From NCBI RefSeq assembly GCF_016026235.1, contig NZ_CP065613.1: a stretch of DNA of 64,000 bases; one strand, given 5' to 3'. This document shows, in pieces, positions 24,808 to 59,325 of the stretch (within the stretch, counting starts at the first letter, position 1; every line of letters starts with the position of its first letter). This DNA is from Escherichia coli. GTDB lineage: Bacteria; Pseudomonadota; Gammaproteobacteria; Enterobacterales; Enterobacteriaceae. Below the pieces are notes generated by a model. The model did not search any database, was not told the DNA's origin, and worked only from the letters and a program-made list of their open reading frames with translations. A program made the translations under genes and the position numbers.

Positions 24808-25839
24808 ATGTCTGCATTTACCCCGGCAAGTGAAGTCTTGCTGCGTCACAGTGATGATTTCGAACAAAGCCGTATTCTGTTTGCCGGAGACTTACAGGAT
24901 GACCTGCCCGCGCGTTTAGATACCGCGGCCAGCCGTGCTCATACCCAGCAATTCCACCACTGGCAGGTATTAAGCCGCCAGATGGGGGATAACGCCCGTT
25001 TCAGTCTGGTCGCCACGGCGGATGACGTCGCAGATTGCGATACGCTGATTTACTACTGGCCGAAGAACAAACCGGAAGCCCAGTTCCAGTTGATGAATTT
25101 ACTTTCTCTGCTGCCAGTGGGGACAGATATTTTTGTCGTTGGCGAGAACCGCAGCGGCGTGCGCAGCGCCGAGCAGATGCTGGCAGATTATGCGCCGTTG
25201 AATAAAGTCGACAGCGCTCGTCGCTGTGGCCTCTATTTTGGTCGTCTGGAAAAACAGCCGGTATTTGATGCGGATAAATTCTGGGGCGAATACAGCGTCG
25301 ATGGCCTGACGGTCAAAACGCTGCCTGGCGTGTTTAGCCGCGACGGTCTGGATGTCGGTAGCCAGTTGCTGCTCTCGACGTTAACCCCGCACACGAAAGG
25401 TAAAGTGCTGGATGTCGGCTGTGGCGCGGGTGTGCTTTCAGTTGCCTTTGCGCGCCATTCGCCGAAAATTCGTCTCACCTTGTGCGATGTCTCTGCGCCA
25501 GCGGTAGAAGCCAGCCGCGCAACACTTGCGGCCAACGGTGTTGAAGGTGAAGTCTTTGCCAGCAACGTCTTTTCCGAGGTGAAAGGTCGTTTTGATATGA
25601 TCATCTCCAACCCGCCGTTCCACGATGGGATGCAAACCAGCCTGGATGCGGCGCAAACGCTGATTCGCGGCGCGGTGCGTCATCTTAATAGTGGCGGCGA
25701 GCTGCGAATTGTAGCGAACGCCTTCCTGCCTTATCCGGACGTGCTGGATGAGACATTTGGCTTCCATGAAGTGATTGCGCAAACCGGGCGTTTCAAGGTA
25801 TATCACGCCATTATGACCCGCCAGGCGAAAAAAGGTTAA
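24808..25839 (+). CDS. rsmC: 16S rRNA m2G1207 methyltransferase RsmC
   Basis: 343 aa, SAM-binding motif [12 protein letters not shown] and NPPFH. Confidence 0.9.
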
Positions 25840-25858
25840 GTATCCCGCCGCAAGCCTT

Positions 25859-25982
25859 GCCGGATGCGGCGTAAACGCCTTATCCGACCTACAAAACCTG
25901 CATGTTAGCCCTTCGTAGGCCAGATAAGACGCGCCAGCGTCGCATCTGGCATCTGCCCCCGCATGCCTACCAAACCTGCACG
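25859..25982. repeat. REP/BIME cluster downstream of rsmC
   Basis: three REP-like palindromic units (gccggatgcggcgtaaacgcc..., gtaggccagataagacgcg..., cgcatctggc...). Confidence 0.6.
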
Positions 25983-26106
25983 CTAGTTTCCTGATGGACA
26001 TTTTTCCAGCAATTACACCTCCGGCGATAATTAACTATTGACGAAAAGCTGAAAACCACTAGAATGCGCCTCCGTGGTAGCAATTCTTTTTAAGAATTGA
26101 TGGTAT

Positions 26107-26193
26107 GCGAAGGTGGCGGAATTGGTAGACGCGCTAGCTTCAGGTGTTAGTGTCCTTACGGACGTGGGGGTTCAAGTCCCCCCCCTCGCACCA
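26107..26193 (+). tRNA. leuQ: tRNA-Leu (anticodon CAG), copy 1
   Basis: 87 nt GCGAAGGTGGCGGAATTGGTAGACGCG...CTCGCACCA with long variable arm; gene symbol is by position only. Confidence 0.9.
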
Positions 26194-26227
26194 AACGAGG
26201 CGATATCAAAAAAAGTAAGATGACTGT

Positions 26228-26314
26228 GCGAAGGTGGCGGAATTGGTAGACGCGCTAGCTTCAGGTGTTAGTGTCCTTACGGACGTGGGGGTTCAAGTCC
26301 CCCCCCTCGCACCA
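26228..26314 (+). tRNA. leuP: tRNA-Leu (anticodon CAG), copy 2, identical to copy 1
   Basis: exact 87-nt repeat of copy 1, 34-bp spacer; gene symbol is by position only. Confidence 0.9.
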
Positions 26315-26352
26315 ATTATCTTTACTTCCTTTCTTGTTTCTTCCTTGATTTT

Positions 26353-26589
26353 TCATCCCTGATTCAAATTCATTATCATCAGCATGATGGCAGCAATAAG
26401 CGCTAGGCACGATGGTAGCAAAACGTAATGCCGTAACTGTTTGTGATACAGCATCACCGGCGTCAATACTAATCCCATCAGAATGACAATCCGCCACTGA
26501 TCCGGCGATAAATCCGCATACATCAGCCCTGCAATCAGCAATCCCGGCAGCAACACTCCCCAGCCACTGCCCAGCGTACGTTGCAACAT
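26353..26589 (-). CDS. yjjZ: small membrane protein YjjZ (DUF1435)
   Basis: 78 aa from MLQRTLGSGWGVLLPGLLIAGLMY. Confidence 0.8.
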   Translation of the reverse strand: MLQRTLGSGWGVLLPGLLIAGLMYADLSPDQWRIVILMGLVLTPVMLYHKQLRHYVLLPSCLALIAAIMLMIMNLNQG

Positions 26590-26604
26590 GGTTTCATCTC
26601 TTTC

Positions 26605-26646
26605 ATTGATAATGATAACCAATATCATATGATAATTTTTATCATT
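26605..26646. promoter_or_regulatory. Fur box(es) in the yjjZ / fhuF divergent promoter region
   Basis: tgataatgataaccaatatc matches the Fur consensus GATAATGATAATCATTATC at 17/19, followed by overlapping gataattttta repeats. Confidence 0.55.
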
Positions 26647-26696
26647 TGCAAGCCAGAGAAATCCCTTGCTATCGGGTAAACCTATCGCTAGGATTA

Positions 26697-26711
26697 GCAA
26701 TCATTATCATT
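26697..26711. promoter_or_regulatory. second Fur-box-like site just upstream of fhuF
   Basis: gcaatcattatcatt matches the AATCATTATC half of the Fur box. Confidence 0.45.
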
Positions 26712-26729
26712 TAGATTGCTATCCCGATT

Positions 26730-27518
26730 ATGGCCTATCGTTCCGCACCGCTCTATGAAGATGTTATCTGGCGAACGCATCTCCAGCCGCAGGATCCCAC
26801 GCTTGCGCAAGCCGTGCGGGCGACGATCGCAAAACATCGTGAACATTTGCTGGAGTTTATCCGCCTGGATGAACCTGCCCCACTTAACGCCATGACGCTG
26901 GCGCAATGGTCATCACCGAATGTGCTAAGTTCTCTGCTGGCGGTCTATTCCGATCATATCTATCGCAACCAACCGATGATGATCCGCGAGAACAAACCGC
27001 TGATCTCACTGTGGGCACAATGGTATATCGGCCTGATGGTGCCACCATTAATGCTGGCGCTACTGACGCAGGAAAAGGCATTAGATGTGTCGCCGGAACA
27101 TTTCCATGCTGAGTTTCACGAAACCGGCCGTGCCGCCTGTTTCTGGGTCGATGTGTGTGAAGATAAAAACGCAACACCACATTCGCCGCAGCAGCGAATG
27201 GAAAGGTTAATCAGCCAGGCGCTGGTTCCGGTTGTGCAGGCACTAGAAGCGACCGGAGAGATCAACGGCAAACTTATCTGGAGTAATACCGGTTATTTGA
27301 TCAACTGGTATCTTACTGAGATGAAGCAACTGCTCGGCGAGGCGACGGTTGAATCGCTGCGCCATGCCCTCTTTTTTGAGAAAACGCTCACGAACGGTGA
27401 AGATAATCCACTCTGGCGTACCGTGGTACTGCGCGATGGCCTGCTGGTGCGCCGCACTTGCTGCCAGCGTTATCGCTTACCGGATGTGCAGCAATGTGGC
27501 GATTGTACGCTGAAATGA
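26730..27518 (+). CDS. fhuF: ferric-siderophore reductase FhuF (2Fe-2S, C-terminal Cys cluster)
   Basis: 262 aa, C-terminal CCQRYRLPDVQQCGDC motif. Confidence 0.9.
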   Translation: MAYRSAPLYEDVIWRTHLQPQDPTLAQAVRATIAKHREHLLEFIRLDEPAPLNAMTLAQWSSPNVLSSLLAVYSDHIYRNQPMMIRENKPLISLWAQWYIGLMVPPLMLALLTQEKALDVSPEHFHAEFHETGRAACFWVDVCEDKNATPHSPQQRMERLISQALVPVVQALEATGEINGKLIWSNTGYLINWYLTEMKQLLGEATVESLRHALFFEKTLTNGEDNPLWRTVVLRDGLLVRRTCCQRYRLPDVQQCGDCTLK

Positions 27519-41105: not shown

Positions 41106-43256
41106 ATGGATACTAAAAAGATATTCAAGCACATACCCTGGGTGATTCTCGGAATCATCGGTGCATTCTGCCTCGCGGTAGTTGCATTACGTCGGGGGGA
41201 GCACGTCAGCGCCCTGTGGATCGTGGTCGCCTCTGTGTCGGTGTATCTGGTGGCGTATCGCTACTACAGTCTGTACATCGCCCAGAAGGTGATGAAACTC
41301 GACCCCACGCGCGCGACGCCTGCGGTTATTAACAACGACGGTCTGAACTACGTTCCGACCAACCGTTACGTGTTGTTTGGTCACCACTTCGCCGCTATCG
41401 CCGGTGCTGGTCCGCTGGTGGGTCCGGTTCTCGCCGCGCAGATGGGCTACCTGCCTGGCACGCTGTGGCTGCTGGCGGGGGTCGTGCTGGCCGGTGCGGT
41501 TCAGGACTTTATGGTGCTGTTTATCTCCTCTCGCCGTAATGGCGCATCTCTTGGTGAGATGATCAAAGAAGAGATGGGACCAGTACCGGGGACTATCGCG
41601 CTGTTTGGCTGTTTCTTAATCATGATCATCATCCTCGCCGTCCTGGCGCTGATTGTGGTTAAAGCCCTGGCCGAAAGTCCGTGGGGTGTCTTCACCGTTT
41701 GCTCAACCGTACCGATTGCGCTGTTTATGGGTATCTACATGCGCTTTATCCGTCCGGGGCGTGTGGGTGAAGTCTCTGTCATTGGTATCGTGCTGCTGGT
41801 TGCCTCTATCTACTTCGGTGGCGTGATTGCTCACGATCCGTACTGGGGTCCGGCACTGACCTTTAAAGACACCACCATTACCTTCGCGCTGATTGGCTAT
41901 GCGTTTGTTTCCGCACTGCTGCCGGTGTGGCTGATCCTCGCACCGCGCGACTATCTGGCAACCTTCCTGAAAATCGGCGTTATCGTCGGCCTGGCGCTGG
42001 GTATCGTGGTGCTGAACCCGGAACTGAAAATGCCTGCGATGACCCAGTACATTGACGGTACTGGCCCGCTGTGGAAAGGCGCTCTGTTCCCGTTCCTGTT
42101 CATCACCATCGCCTGTGGTGCGGTATCTGGCTTCCACGCGCTGATCTCTTCCGGTACGACGCCGAAACTGCTGGCTAACGAAACCGACGCGCGTTTCATT
42201 GGCTACGGCGCAATGCTGATGGAGTCCTTCGTGGCGATTATGGCGCTGGTTGCTGCGTCCATCATCGAACCGGGTCTTTACTTCGCGATGAATACCCCGC
42301 CTGCGGGCCTTGGCATCACCATGCCTAACCTGCATGAAATGGGTGGCGAGAACGCGCCGATCATCATGGCGCAGCTGAAAGACGTTACCGCACACGCGGC
42401 GGCGACCGTCAGCTCCTGGGGCTTCGTGATTTCGCCAGAGCAGATCCTGCAAACCGCGAAAGACATTGGTGAGCCTTCTGTCCTGAACCGTGCAGGTGGT
42501 GCGCCGACGCTGGCGGTAGGTATCGCTCATGTGTTCCACAAAGTGCTGCCGATGGCTGACATGGGCTTCTGGTATCACTTCGGTATTCTGTTCGAAGCCC
42601 TGTTCATCCTGACCGCGCTGGATGCGGGTACCCGTTCTGGCCGCTTTATGCTGCAAGACCTGCTGGGTAACTTCATCCCGTTCCTGAAAAAAACCGACTC
42701 TCTGGTTGCCGGTATCATCGGTACTGCGGGCTGTGTGGGTCTGTGGGGCTACCTGCTGTATCAGGGCGTGGTCGATCCGCTGGGCGGCGTTAAGAGCCTG
42801 TGGCCGCTGTTCGGTATCTCCAACCAGATGCTGGCAGCCGTAGCGCTGGTACTGGGCACCGTTGTGCTGATTAAGATGAAGCGCACCCAATACATCTGGG
42901 TAACTGTTGTTCCGGCTGTATGGCTGCTTATCTGCACCACTTGGGCGCTGGGTCTGAAACTGTTCAGCACCAACCCGCAGATGGAAGGCTTCTTCTACAT
43001 GGCAAGCCAGTACAAAGAGAAGATTGCTAACGGTACTGACCTGACGGCGCAGCAGATTGCCAACATGAACCACATCGTTGTGAACAACTACACCAACGCG
43101 GGCCTGAGTATTCTGTTCCTGATTGTGGTGTACAGCATCATCTTCTACGGTTTCAAAACCTGGCTTGCGGTGCGTAACAGCGACAAACGTACTGACAAAG
43201 AAACACCGTACGTTCCAATCCCGGAAGGCGGCGTGAAGATCTCTTCGCACCACTAA
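41106..43256 (+). CDS. btsT: CstA-family pyruvate/H+ symporter BtsT (YjiY)
   Basis: 716 aa from MDTKKIFKHIPWVILGIIGAF. Confidence 0.9.
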   Translation: MDTKKIFKHIPWVILGIIGAFCLAVVALRRGEHVSALWIVVASVSVYLVAYRYYSLYIAQKVMKLDPTRATPAVINNDGLNYVPTNRYVLFGHHFAAIAGAGPLVGPVLAAQMGYLPGTLWLLAGVVLAGAVQDFMVLFISSRRNGASLGEMIKEEMGPVPGTIALFGCFLIMIIILAVLALIVVKALAESPWGVFTVCSTVPIALFMGIYMRFIRPGRVGEVSVIGIVLLVASIYFGGVIAHDPYWGPALTFKDTTITFALIGYAFVSALLPVWLILAPRDYLATFLKIGVIVGLALGIVVLNPELKMPAMTQYIDGTGPLWKGALFPFLFITIACGAVSGFHALISSGTTPKLLANETDARFIGYGAMLMESFVAIMALVAASIIEPGLYFAMNTPPAGLGITMPNLHEMGGENAPIIMAQLKDVTAHAAATVSSWGFVISPEQILQTAKDIGEPSVLNRAGGAPTLAVGIAHVFHKVLPMADMGFWYHFGILFEALFILTALDAGTRSGRFMLQDLLGNFIPFLKKTDSLVAGIIGTAGCVGLWGYLLYQGVVDPLGGVKSLWPLFGISNQMLAAVALVLGTVVLIKMKRTQYIWVTVVPAVWLLICTTWALGLKLFSTNPQMEGFFYMASQYKEKIANGTDLTAQQIANMNHIVVNNYTNAGLSILFLIVVYSIIFYGFKTWLAVRNSDKRTDKETPYVPIPEGGVKISSHH

Positions 43257-56526: not shown

Positions 56527-57438
56527 ATGGATGACTGTGGTGCGGTTTTGCATAATATTGAAACTAAATGGCTTTATGATTTTCTGACCCTGGAAAAATG
56601 CCGCAATTTTTCCCAGGCAGCAGTCAGTCGCAACGTCTCGCAACCGGCATTCAGCCGCCGCATCCGTGCGCTGGAACAGGCGATTGGCGTTGAATTGTTT
56701 AACCGCCAGGTGACGCCGCTGCAACTCTCGGAACAAGGTAAAATATTCCATTCGCAGATCCGCCATCTGTTGCAACAGTTAGAGAGCAACCTTGCAGAAC
56801 TCCGTGGTGGCAGCGATTACGCGCAACGCAAAATTAAAATAGCCGCTGCACACTCTCTTTCCCTCGGGCTGTTACCGTCCATTATCAGCCAGATGCCGCC
56901 GCTCTTTACCTGGGCAATTGAAGCTATTGATGTCGATGAAGCGGTCGATAAACTGCGTGAAGGGCAAAGTGACTGTATTTTTTCCTTTCACGACGAAGAT
57001 TTGCTGGAAGCGCCGTTTGACCACATTCGCTTATTTGAATCTCAATTGTTCCCCGTTTGCGCCAGTGACGAACACGGAGAAGCACTTTTTAACCTCGCGC
57101 AGCCACACTTTCCGTTACTGAATTACAGCCGCAACTCCTACATGGGGCGATTGATTAATCGCACCCTGACGCGCCACAGTGAGTTAAGTTTCAGCACCTT
57201 TTTTGTCTCTTCGATGAGCGAGCTTTTAAAGCAGGTTGCCCTCGACGGCTGTGGGATTGCCTGGCTACCGGAATACGCCATCCAACAAGAAATTCGCAGC
57301 GGGCAGCTCGTTGTACTGAATCGGGACGAACTGGTGATCCCGATTCAGGCCTATGCATACCGGATGAATACCCGCATGAATCCAGTTGCCGAACGCTTCT
57401 GGCGTGAACTACGCGAGCTGGAGATTGTGCTTAGCTGA
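56527..57438 (+). CDS. hypT: LysR-type hypochlorite-responsive regulator HypT (YjiE)
   Basis: 303 aa, N-terminal LysR HTH. Confidence 0.88.
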
Positions 57439-57823
57439 CATTCTCCAGCGTCGCACTGCGCCAACCGCCATTATCCCAGACCAGATCAAACGTTAGCGAT
57501 TCATCGTCGTGATACAGCATTATCTCAAGGCTGATCGCCAGAGTGTGGCAGTACGCTTCTTTCAAATTAACCTGCAACGCCGCAATCCGTGGCTCATGAA
57601 ATAACAGTGCAGAACGCAGCTGACGGCAATACCAGCTCTGGAGATGTTTGTCGCTCGGGTTATGCACTTGCCACTCGGGCATGCCTGAAACAAGTAATGA
57701 CGGTAATGCCGAATGAGGAGAATTAAAAAGAGTGAGGAGATCGCTGCATACTGATTTACGCAGCGGTGACGTTTTATTGCCTGAAATTTCAGGTAAAACA
57801 GCCTGAAGTGATTGGCGCATCAT
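57431..57823 (-). CDS. iraD: anti-adaptor protein IraD
   Basis: 130 aa from [23 protein letters not shown]. Confidence 0.85.
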
Positions 57824-58494
57824 TTTGCGCACTCCTGACGTTTAGCAACATATGCGGCTTGCCCTGAACACCGGGCACCACTGTATTGATGCTCATTTTC
57901 CATAGCCATTCCCTTTTGTTCATTACATCCATGTCAGTCTGAGACAGGCCTGAATCCTGTCAGCAAAGTATAAAACCTTACTTGCCTATGAATATCTACT
58001 GACTTTTCAGGAAAAAAGTCATGATTTGATAAAAATCATCAAACTCAAAAAAAAACCGCTAGTATATTCTGAATATTCCGAATAGTTACGTAGATGAAAA
58101 TACTTGTCACCACCGCTACTTAATTCCGGTGGGAAATTATTTATTTCCGCATAATCAGCCATGTATTATTTAAAACAATTAGTTTGTAAATAATATAAAT
58201 TGATAACATATCAAATACATCAAAAATACCATTCACAGGCATTATTAATATAGACATCAATATAGCAACATCAAATTCCAATTAGTAATAAGATATGCTT
58301 TTAAATTGCATGCAAATAATTTTAAATGAGCGTTTTTTGATACTTTAGAGTGTTTCCCACCATTTAATATCACTGTGTAGAGTTGATATCACTACAACAG
58401 AAACATGCATGTCATTTGTTTACTTCTCTTTTTACTACAGAAAAATTTATCTATTTTTCTAAGCATCAGTGAAATACTCATAAAGGTAACTATT

Positions 58495-59325
58495 ATGTCT
58501 ATGCCATTAAGCAATGCCCTTCAGAGTCAAATTATTACAGATAATCACTTCCTTCATCATCCAAAAGTCGACAGTGAGTTAACACGTAAACATGAACGTG
58601 CACGCATGGATACGGAAAATATCTATCTTCCGCCTCTTGCTCGTGGCAATAACCATAATTACGATGGAAAAAGCGTTGTCGAAATTAGAAAACTTGATAT
58701 TAGTAAAGAGTCCTGGCCATTTAATTATGTGACAGAAACATGCAGAGAATTCAATGGTATTACAACAACAGGACGTATGCTCTATCGAAACTTGAAAATC
58801 ACCTCAGCTTTAGACGAAATATATGGTGGTATATGTAAAAAGGCGCATGCTGCCACAGAGTTAGCAGAAGGATTACGGCTAAATTTATTTATGAAAAGCC
58901 CTTTCGATCCTGTTGAGGACTATACAGTTCATGAAATAACATTAGGCCCTGGTTGCAATGTTCCTGGTTATGCCGGAACCACGATAGGATATATTTCAAC
59001 CCTTCCAGCTTCTCAGGCAAAAAGATGGACCAATGAGCAGCCAAGGATTGATATCTATATTGATCAGATAATGACGGTAACAGGGGTAGCAAATTCTTCC
59101 GGATTCGCCCTTGCCGCATTACTTAATGCTAATATTGAGTTGGGTAATGACCCAATAATTGGTATAGAAGCCTATCCCGGTACCGCGGAGATCCATGCAA
59201 AAATGGGATATAAAGTTATCCTGGGTGATGAAAATGCACCACTCAAACGTATGACTCTGCAACCGTCATCTCTTCCAGAACTGTTTGAATTAAAAAATGG
59301 TGAATGGAATTATATTGGTAAATAA
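58495..59325 (+). CDS. yjiC: uncharacterised protein YjiC
   Basis: 276 aa from MSMPLSNALQSQIITDNHF, AT-rich gene with long AT-rich upstream region. Confidence 0.8.
   Translation: MSMPLSNALQSQIITDNHFLHHPKVDSELTRKHERARMDTENIYLPPLARGNNHNYDGKSVVEIRKLDISKESWPFNYVTETCREFNGITTTGRMLYRNLKITSALDEIYGGICKKAHAATELAEGLRLNLFMKSPFDPVEDYTVHEITLGPGCNVPGYAGTTIGYISTLPASQAKRWTNEQPRIDIYIDQIMTVTGVANSSGFALAALLNANIELGNDPIIGIEAYPGTAEIHAKMGYKVILGDENAPLKRMTLQPSSLPELFELKNGEWNYIGK

What the first reader, a model, noticed from the sequence alone, without database searches (positions are those of the whole stretch)
26590..26729. Tandem Fur boxes in the yjjZ-fhuF divergent promoter
Overlapping GATAAT hexamer arrays (tgataatgataaccaatatcatatgataatttttatcatt) plus a second aatcattatcatt site occupy the 140-bp interval between the divergent starts. 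This is consistent with iron control of both fhuF and the small membrane protein yjjZ.
Basis: partly seen in the sequence, partly recalled or inferred. Interest (0 to 1): 0.2.

Follow-up and report, generated by a model that had tools for sequence, protein, structure and literature searches.

The report
Known Fur operators between yjjZ and fhuF

Summary
Observation confirmed, interpretation supported, already known. The window is Escherichia coli. yjjZ (26353-26589, minus strand) and fhuF (26730-27518, plus strand) diverge across 140 bp. Both quoted strings are present (26607-26646 and 26699-26711).

- **Statistics.** Three of the four best matches to the 7-1-7 Fur motif in all 64 kb overlap at 26607-26644. 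None of 5000 shuffles of the interval itself gave three such sites. The distal site (26695-26709) is weak on its own.
- **Published experiments.** The box sequences are identical to K-12. There, Chen et al. 2007 found a high-affinity DNase I footprint (maps to 26601-26653) and a low-affinity one (26683-26736). In CFT073, one shared Fur ChIP-seq peak covers both genes, and a fur deletion raises fhuF 90-fold and yjjZ 208-fold.
- **Anatomy.** The strong cluster covers the yjjZ promoter (-28 to +10). The weak site covers the fhuF transcription start.
- **Added here.** In Citrobacter, Salmonella and Klebsiella a GGDEF gene separates the two genes by about 1.4 kb. The strong cluster stays with yjjZ and the weak site stays with fhuF. 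The Escherichia interval is therefore two separate operators joined when that gene was lost.

Interest is low.

The parts
26353..26589 (-). yjjZ coding sequence (78 aa, DUF1435, small hydrophobic protein)
   Evidence: ORF and annotation. Pfam PF07256, E=1.8e-35. Three hydrophobic segments, GRAVY 0.96.
26590..26616 (-). yjjZ 5' UTR (27 nt); transcription start at 26616
   Evidence: The published K-12 start, 4,605,777 (PMC10301672), was mapped onto the window using the gap-free alignment.
26624..26629 (-). yjjZ promoter -10 hexamer, TATGAT
   Evidence: Promoter scan. The same hexamers are given by Shimada 2014 and the ROSE paper. Invariant across 4 genera.
26646..26651 (-). yjjZ promoter -35 hexamer, TTGCAA (16-bp spacer)
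   Evidence: Other genera have CTGACA at the equivalent place.
26607..26627 (.). Classical Fur box: two 7-1-7 motifs offset by 6 bp (26607-26621 and 26613-26627, 2 mismatches each). It contains the 19-mer 26608-26626. Relative to the yjjZ start it spans -11 to +10.
   Evidence: Nearly invariant in 10 taxa.
26630..26644 (.). Third and best 7-1-7 Fur motif, TGATAATTTTTATCA (1 mismatch). It sits in the spacer of the yjjZ promoter (-14 to -28).
26606..26651 (.). 46-bp near-palindrome that makes up the strong Fur cluster. It also carries a mirror-image promoter-like site pointing toward fhuF (TTGATA 26606-26611, then TATGAT 26628-26633 or GATAAT 26631-26636).
   Evidence: Inverted repeat I1: 23-nt arms, 78% complementary, no gap between them. 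Promoter scan. Shimada 2014 prediction TTGATA-19-GATAAT.
26601..26653 (.). Published high-affinity Fur DNase I footprint 'fhuF1', mapped from K-12
   Evidence: Chen 2007 Table 3 gives 4603763-4603815. The same coordinate offset (1977) fits both ATGs.
26647..26657 (.). Junction between the yjjZ-side module and the fhuF-side module, to within about 5 bp. This is where a GGDEF gene of about 1.3 kb lies in other genera.
   Evidence: Alignments A2 and A3. Inference.
26666..26671 (+). fhuF promoter -35 hexamer, TTGCTA
   Evidence: It lies 17 bp upstream of the -10 hexamer. The bases CTTGC are invariant in 11 taxa. The assignment is inferred from the published start.
26689..26694 (+). fhuF promoter -10 hexamer, TAGGAT (TATGAT in K-12)
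   Evidence: The pattern TAnnAT is invariant in 11 taxa. The difference from K-12 is at 26691.
26699..26700 (+). fhuF transcription starts
   Evidence: Chen 2007, Figure 5 legend: 4603717 and 4603716, mapped to the window.
26695..26709 (.). Weak Fur 7-1-7 site, TAGCAATCATTATCA (3 mismatches), spanning -5 to +10 of fhuF. It lies within a block (26699-26717) that is invariant or nearly so across 11 taxa.
26683..26736 (.). Published low-affinity Fur DNase I footprint 'fhuF2', mapped from K-12
   Evidence: Chen 2007 Table 3 gives 4603680-4603733, mapped to the window.
26730..27518 (+). fhuF coding sequence (262 aa, ferric-siderophore reductase)
   Evidence: NCBIfam NF007932, 475.7 bits. Pfam FhuF and FhuF_C.

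Best explanation
The interval holds two Fur operators, one on each of two divergent sigma-70 promoters.

The strong operator (26606-26651) is a 46-bp near-palindrome with three overlapping 7-1-7 motifs. It spans -28 to +10 of the yjjZ promoter. The weak operator (core 26695-26709) spans the fhuF transcription start and the first part of its leader.

When iron is sufficient, metal-loaded Fur dimers occupy both operators and keep RNA polymerase off the promoters. When iron is scarce, Fur leaves and both genes are transcribed.

- Shown in the literature, for box sequences identical to those here: Fur binding at both places, with different affinities; in vivo occupancy; strong derepression of both genes in fur mutants.
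- Shown here: the two operators are separable modules. In genera where a GGDEF gene keeps the genes 1.4 kb apart, the strong cluster travels with yjjZ and the weak site with fhuF.
- Inferred: repression works by promoter occlusion. The low affinity of the site on the fhuF core promoter is why fhuF is easily derepressed, which is the property the Fur titration assay exploits.
For: Sequence and statistics. Identity of the boxes to K-12. Near-invariance within Escherichia.

DNase I footprints at two affinities and the fhuF starts: Chen 2007, mapped. yjjZ start and transcription only in a fur mutant or in vitro. Promoter hexamers.

ChIP-seq summit 5300 shared by both genes, with 90-fold and 208-fold derepression independent of RyhB. 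Core Fur regulon in nine strains. fhuF::lacZ as the Fur titration reporter.

Cross-genus evidence: the strong cluster sits 18, 24 and 41 bp from the yjjZ ATG where present (all three sites in Escherichia; one to three of them score at 3 mismatches or fewer in the other genera). The weak site sits 21-30 bp from the fhuF ATG in the taxa where it scores. This holds whether the gap is 140 bp or about 1.4 kb. Salmonella yjjZ, whose gene lies far from fhuF, is still iron-repressed and in the Fur regulon.
Against: - No experiment exists on this exact strain. Its interval differs from K-12 at 4 positions (26591, 26658, 26691, 26718), one of them in the fhuF -10 hexamer.
- The distal site is a poor consensus match. 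Its cross-genus invariance could owe as much to the transcription start, the leader or OxyR binding as to Fur.
- K. grimontii has no 7-1-7 match with 3 or fewer mismatches near fhuF, although the core block is conserved there.
- Whether the strong cluster contributes to fhuF repression in Escherichia is untested.
- Occlusion is inferred from positions, not shown.
Confidence: 0.93

Rival explanations
1. One integrated operator. The strong cluster is the main control element for both genes. Fur nucleates there and spreads or cooperates across about 75 bp to the weak site, so fhuF repression in Escherichia depends on the yjjZ-proximal cluster.
For: Chen 2007 and others treat the strong cluster as the fhuF Fur site, and the consensus-based method found only that one. 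ChIP-seq shows a single shared peak. Fur is documented to extend its footprints at higher concentration. The strong cluster also carries a promoter-like site pointing toward fhuF.
Against: In four Citrobacter loci and one Salmonella locus, fhuF keeps only the weak site, 1.4 kb from the strong one. The weak site is therefore a self-standing module. The two footprints are separate, with unprotected DNA between them. ChIP-seq cannot resolve sites 75 bp apart.
Confidence: 0.3
2. Chance resemblance. The interval is simply A+T-rich promoter DNA whose -10-like and UP-like sequences look like Fur boxes.
For: The interval is 66% A+T against 48% for the window. The Fur motif overlaps TATAAT-like hexamers. 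The distal site alone is only marginally unusual (P about 0.015).
Against: Composition-matched shuffles never reproduce the cluster (0 of 5000). The published footprints, ChIP data and fur-mutant data apply to identical box sequences.
Confidence: 0.01
3. The conserved distal block (26683-26717) is primarily an OxyR operator or a leader element of fhuF, and Fur binding there is secondary.
For: OxyR is reported to repress fhuF, and RegulonDB lists four OxyR sites at fhuF. An OxyR-like match with 13 of 20 specified positions lies at 26671-26707. The block is more conserved than a weak Fur site would seem to need.
Against: Fur protects this region in vitro. The OxyR motif score is not distinctive: nine sites score at least 13 in the window. 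The primary OxyR paper could not be read. The two roles are not mutually exclusive.
Confidence: 0.25

Closest known systems
The fhuF promoter Fur sites fhuF1 and fhuF2 of E. coli K-12 (Chen, Lewis, Shultzaberger et al., Nucleic Acids Res 2007)
   Same: It is the same locus. The 140-bp interval has the same length with 4 substitutions, none inside the Fur motifs. The footprint coordinates transfer directly.
   Different: Only strain-level differences: G instead of T at 26691 in the fhuF -10 hexamer, which is the commoner Escherichia state, and three other substitutions.
Divergent Fur-controlled promoter pairs of the enterobactin cluster (fepA-fes, fepB-entC, fepD-entS)
   Same: Two divergent sigma-70 promoters in a short A+T-rich interval, both repressed by Fur bound over the core promoters. 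The papers are cited; the comparison itself rests on established knowledge.
   Different: Here each promoter has its own operator, with very different affinity. The two were brought together secondarily by a gene loss. They did not arise as a shared bidirectional control region.
Extended Fur operators made of hexamer or 7-1-7 arrays (aerobactin iucA promoter; Escolar/de Lorenzo and Baichoo/Helmann models)
   Same: The strong cluster consists of overlapping 7-1-7 units offset by 6 bp plus a further unit, and it gives a 53-bp footprint.
   Different: It is shorter than the aerobactin operator and arranged as a 46-bp near-palindrome.

Membership tests
Fur operator (E. coli Fur regulon site) | Sequence match to the Fur box (19-bp consensus, overlapping 7-1-7 motifs, or three or more GATAAT-type hexamers) | tested here: met
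   Strong cluster: 19-mer with 2 mismatches and 7-1-7 motifs with 2, 2 and 1 mismatches, far above chance. Distal site: 7-1-7 with 3 mismatches, marginal on its own.
Fur operator (E. coli Fur regulon site) | Overlap with the core promoter or transcription start of the regulated gene | tested here: met
   Strong cluster spans -28 to +10 of yjjZ. Distal site spans -5 to +10 of fhuF. Both use published starts mapped to the window.
Fur operator (E. coli Fur regulon site) | Metal-dependent Fur binding in vitro | not testable with these tools
   Published DNase I footprints and a gel shift on K-12 DNA whose box sequences are identical.
Fur operator (E. coli Fur regulon site) | In vivo Fur occupancy and Fur- or iron-dependent expression of the flanking genes | not testable with these tools
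   Published: ChIP-seq summit 5300 and 90-fold and 208-fold derepression in CFT073; core pan-regulon by ChIP-exo; yjjZ transcription only in a fur mutant; iron repression of Salmonella yjjZ.
Fur operator (E. coli Fur regulon site) | Conservation of the site in orthologous promoters | tested here: met
   The strong cluster is nearly invariant across Escherichia, Citrobacter, Salmonella and Klebsiella at fixed distance from the yjjZ ATG. The distal core is invariant or nearly so in 11 taxa.
Shared bidirectional Fur control region (fepA-fes type) | A single operator region that serves both divergent promoters | tested here: inconclusive
   There are two separable operators, each tied to its own gene in other genera. 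Whether the strong one also acts on fhuF in Escherichia cannot be decided from sequence.
OxyR binding site | Match to ATAGnTnnnAnCTAT-N7-ATAGnTnnnAnCTAT over the promoter | tested here: inconclusive
   The best local match has 13 of 20 specified positions, at 26671-26707. Nine sites score that well in the window.

The most novel reading that the evidence does not exclude
The Escherichia yjjZ-fhuF control region is an evolutionary fusion. Loss of a GGDEF diguanylate-cyclase gene in the ancestor of the genus joined the very strong, palindromic yjjZ operator to the weak fhuF operator.

That strong operator also carries the mirror-image promoter that probably served the lost gene. The fusion may therefore have rewired fhuF in one of two ways. 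It could have given fhuF a second, Fur-gated upstream promoter starting near 26640. Or it could have allowed cooperative Fur binding, changing the iron threshold or the dynamic range of fhuF compared with Salmonella and Citrobacter.

The fusion itself is well supported. The functional consequence is untested.
Probability: 0.3. Interest if true: 0.25.

Novelty: already known. Interest (0 to 1): 0.08.

Why it matters
fhuF encodes the reductase that releases iron from hydroxamate siderophores, and its promoter is the reporter in the classic Fur titration assay. The architecture of its control region is therefore of practical interest. All the main claims of the finding were nevertheless established between 2000 and 2023, so confirming them here adds nothing new.

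The small addition is evolutionary. The strong 'fhuF' Fur site of the literature is ancestrally the yjjZ operator, and the site on the fhuF core promoter is the weak one. That fits the easy derepression of fhuF. It also suggests simple experiments on how gene loss can merge regulatory modules.

Tried and rejected
- **19-mer consensus on the distal site.** It gives 7 mismatches, so that model does not support the site. The 7-1-7 model and the published information-theory model do.
- **Three-hexamer array scoring.** It did not single out the region strongly: eight arrays with 4 mismatches in the window, two of them here. I relied on the 7-1-7 model instead.
- **OxyR motif scan.** Inconclusive. 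Zheng et al. 2001 (PMC95352), which maps the OxyR site and the fhuF start, is not held.
- **Rfam search of 25800-27000.** Only the two tRNAs and sub-threshold REP-like matches, with nothing in the interval. There is no evidence for an RNA element.
- **Literature search linking STM4551 with fhuF or yjjZ.** None of the 15 listed papers contains STM4551. The name STM4551 for the intervening GGDEF gene is from memory, and NCBIfam matches it only at domain level.
- **Chance or A+T-richness.** Rejected by local shuffles.
- **Spacer length.** The ROSE paper gives an 18-bp spacer for the yjjZ promoter. The sequence and Shimada 2014 give 16.

Full report
**What is there.** The window is Escherichia coli chromosome. 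A 1.4-kb query around the finding matches 5424 of 5426 complete E. coli genomes over most of its length (at least 80% covered), with yjjZ, fhuF, tRNA-Leu and bglJ annotated under the match. The K-12 reference has the same gene order. yjjZ occupies 26353-26589 on the minus strand and fhuF occupies 26730-27518 on the plus strand, which leaves exactly 140 bp between them at 26590-26729. FhuF matches the NCBIfam equivalog for siderophore-iron reductase at 475.7 bits against a cutoff of 300. YjjZ is a 78-residue DUF1435 protein with three hydrophobic segments.

**Is it more than chance?** Yes for the first cluster.
- The 19-bp Fur consensus, with up to 3 mismatches, hits only 26608-26626 in 64 kb (2 mismatches; 0.02 hits expected).
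- With the 7-1-7 motif TGATAATnATTATCA, three of the four sites with at most 2 mismatches in the whole window are at 26607-26621, 26613-26627 and 26630-26644. A fourth site with 3 mismatches lies at 26695-26709.
- Shuffling the 140 bp itself, which keeps its 66% A+T, never gave three such sites in 5000 trials.
- The distal site alone is only modestly unusual (P about 0.015) and fails the 19-mer model with 7 mismatches.
- The strong cluster is a 46-bp near-palindrome: arms 26606-26628 and 26629-26651, 78% complementary, no gap between them.

**Published experiments on the same sequence.** The interval aligns to K-12 without gaps and differs at four positions (26591, 26658, 26691, 26718), none of them in a Fur motif.
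- Chen et al. 2007 (PMC2189734) predicted two Fur clusters in this region. DNase I footprinting then showed a high-affinity region, fhuF1 (4603763-4603815), and a low-affinity region, fhuF2 (4603680-4603733). The fhuF starts are at 4603717 and 4603716.
- One coordinate offset fits both start codons. With it, fhuF1 maps to 26601-26653, fhuF2 to 26683-26736, and the fhuF starts to 26699 and 26700.
- The yjjZ start, 4,605,777 in the current K-12 numbering (PMC10301672), maps to 26616.
- That study saw yjjZ transcription in vitro and in a fur mutant, but not in wild type.
- In uropathogenic CFT073, a single Fur ChIP-seq peak with summit 5300 is assigned to both genes. It is the highest among the core-genome entries of that table. 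The fur-/wild-type ratios are 90.5 for fhuF and 208 for yjjZ, and deleting ryhB has no effect (PMC7157518 Table S1).
- Both genes belong to the core Fur regulon defined by ChIP-exo and expression in nine strains (PMC10164565).
- The fhuF::lacZ fusion is the reporter of the Fur titration assay.

**Anatomy and mechanism.**
- The yjjZ promoter is TTGCAA (26651-26646), a 16-bp spacer, then TATGAT (26629-26624). The three strong 7-1-7 motifs span -28 to +10 of it.
- The fhuF promoter is inferred from the published start: TTGCTA (26666-26671), a 17-bp spacer, then TAGGAT (26689-26694). The patterns CTTGC and TAnnAT are invariant in 11 taxa. The weak Fur site spans -5 to +10.
- The strong cluster lies at -56 to -93 relative to fhuF, upstream of its -35 hexamer.
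- The most likely mechanism is plain promoter occlusion at each promoter by metal-loaded Fur. This is inferred from positions. Binding and regulation themselves are shown in the literature.

**What related sequences add.** A scan of one genome per species with FhuF returned 12 loci.
- In every Escherichia locus the gap is 140 bp. In four Citrobacter loci, Salmonella enterica subsp. arizonae and Klebsiella grimontii it is 1417-1444 bp. In five of those six loci the gap holds a 348-355-aa gene on the fhuF strand; in the second C. amalonaticus locus (L013) only a 205-aa ORF was called there. The gap gene was scanned in C. amalonaticus L007 and S. arizonae and has a GGDEF domain (PF00990, E about 1e-47).
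- The strong cluster stays at the same offsets from the yjjZ ATG (18, 24 and 41 bp), with one to three of the three sites scoring at 3 mismatches or fewer outside Escherichia. The weak site stays 21-30 bp from the fhuF ATG where it scores.
- Homology on the yjjZ side runs from the ATG to about 26651. Homology on the fhuF side starts at about 26655. The block 26699-26717 is invariant or nearly so in 11 taxa.
- The gene is present in Klebsiella, Citrobacter and Salmonella, so by parsimony it was lost in the Escherichia ancestor. That loss fused two independent promoter-operator modules at about 26647-26657.
- It follows that the 'strong fhuF Fur site' of the literature is ancestrally the yjjZ operator. 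Salmonella yjjZ, which lies far from fhuF, is still iron-repressed and in the Fur regulon.
- Within Escherichia the Fur motifs hardly vary.

**Open points.**
- Whether the strong cluster also acts on fhuF cannot be decided from sequence. It might do so through cooperative Fur binding, or through the mirror-image promoter-like site TTGATA...TATGAT/GATAAT, which Shimada et al. list as the fhuF-directed RpoD site.
- OxyR is reported to repress fhuF. My motif scan gives only an undistinguished match at 26671-26707, and the primary paper was not available.
- Rfam finds no RNA element in the interval.

**Verdict.** The feature is already known in detail, so interest is low. The only addition is the two-module origin of the interval.

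Noticed in passing
L006-L009, L011, L013 (for example L007:1324-2388); junction at window ~26647-26657: In Citrobacter, Salmonella and Klebsiella a GGDEF-domain gene of about 354 aa lies between yjjZ and fhuF. All Escherichia loci lack it. The 140-bp interval is therefore a fusion of two formerly separate promoter regions. In Citrobacter a hairpin (GGCGCATTCGTGCGCC) follows the GGDEF gene, and both flanks share a short G[C/T]CAG microhomology at the junction.
   Followed up: yes
L016 (E. coli strain 200164, NZ_CM128590.1), equivalent to an insertion next to window 26607: This strain has a 164-bp interval. Four extra GATAAT hexamers (24 bp) are inserted in the strong Fur cluster and yjjZ leader, giving TGATAAT(GATAAT)x4GATAAC. 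It is either a natural slippage allele or an assembly artefact.
   Followed up: partly
window 26691: The fhuF -10 hexamer is TAGGAT here and TAGGAT or TAGTAT in all sampled Escherichia sequences other than K-12. K-12 is the odd one out, with the more consensus-like TATGAT.
   Followed up: partly
window 26107-26193 and 26228-26314: There are only two tandem tRNA-Leu(CAG) genes, where K-12 has three (leuQ, leuP, leuV). This looks like copy-number variation in the tandem tRNA array.
   Followed up: partly
window 58027-58041: This is the only other 7-1-7 Fur-like match with 2 mismatches in the window (TGATAAAAATCATCA). It lies in a 570-bp A+T-rich gap between a gp25/TssE-like baseplate gene (57431-57832, minus strand) and a DUF2686 gene (58405-59325, plus strand). 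Fur control of a type VI secretion cluster is known in another E. coli (PMC3145626), so this may be worth a look.
   Followed up: partly
window 26364-26384: Fur-like 7-1-7 matches with 3 and 4 mismatches (TCAAATTCATTATCA, TCATTATCATCAGCA) lie inside the 3' end of yjjZ. They are probably a by-product of the codons for the hydrophobic C-terminus.
   Followed up: no
window 41614-41637: A run of overlapping Fur-like matches with 3-4 mismatches (TCTTAATCATGATCATCATCC). Its context was not examined.
   Followed up: no
window 26671-26707: OxyR-like motif match with 13 of 20 specified positions, covering the fhuF -35/-10 spacer through to the transcription start. OxyR repression of fhuF is reported in the literature, but the published site coordinates could not be retrieved.
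   Followed up: partly
window 25824-25889 and 25918-25981: Sub-threshold Rfam naRNA4 matches (41 and 36 bits against a gathering score of 59.5) between rsmC and the tRNA-Leu genes. They are most likely REP-type repeats.
   Followed up: no
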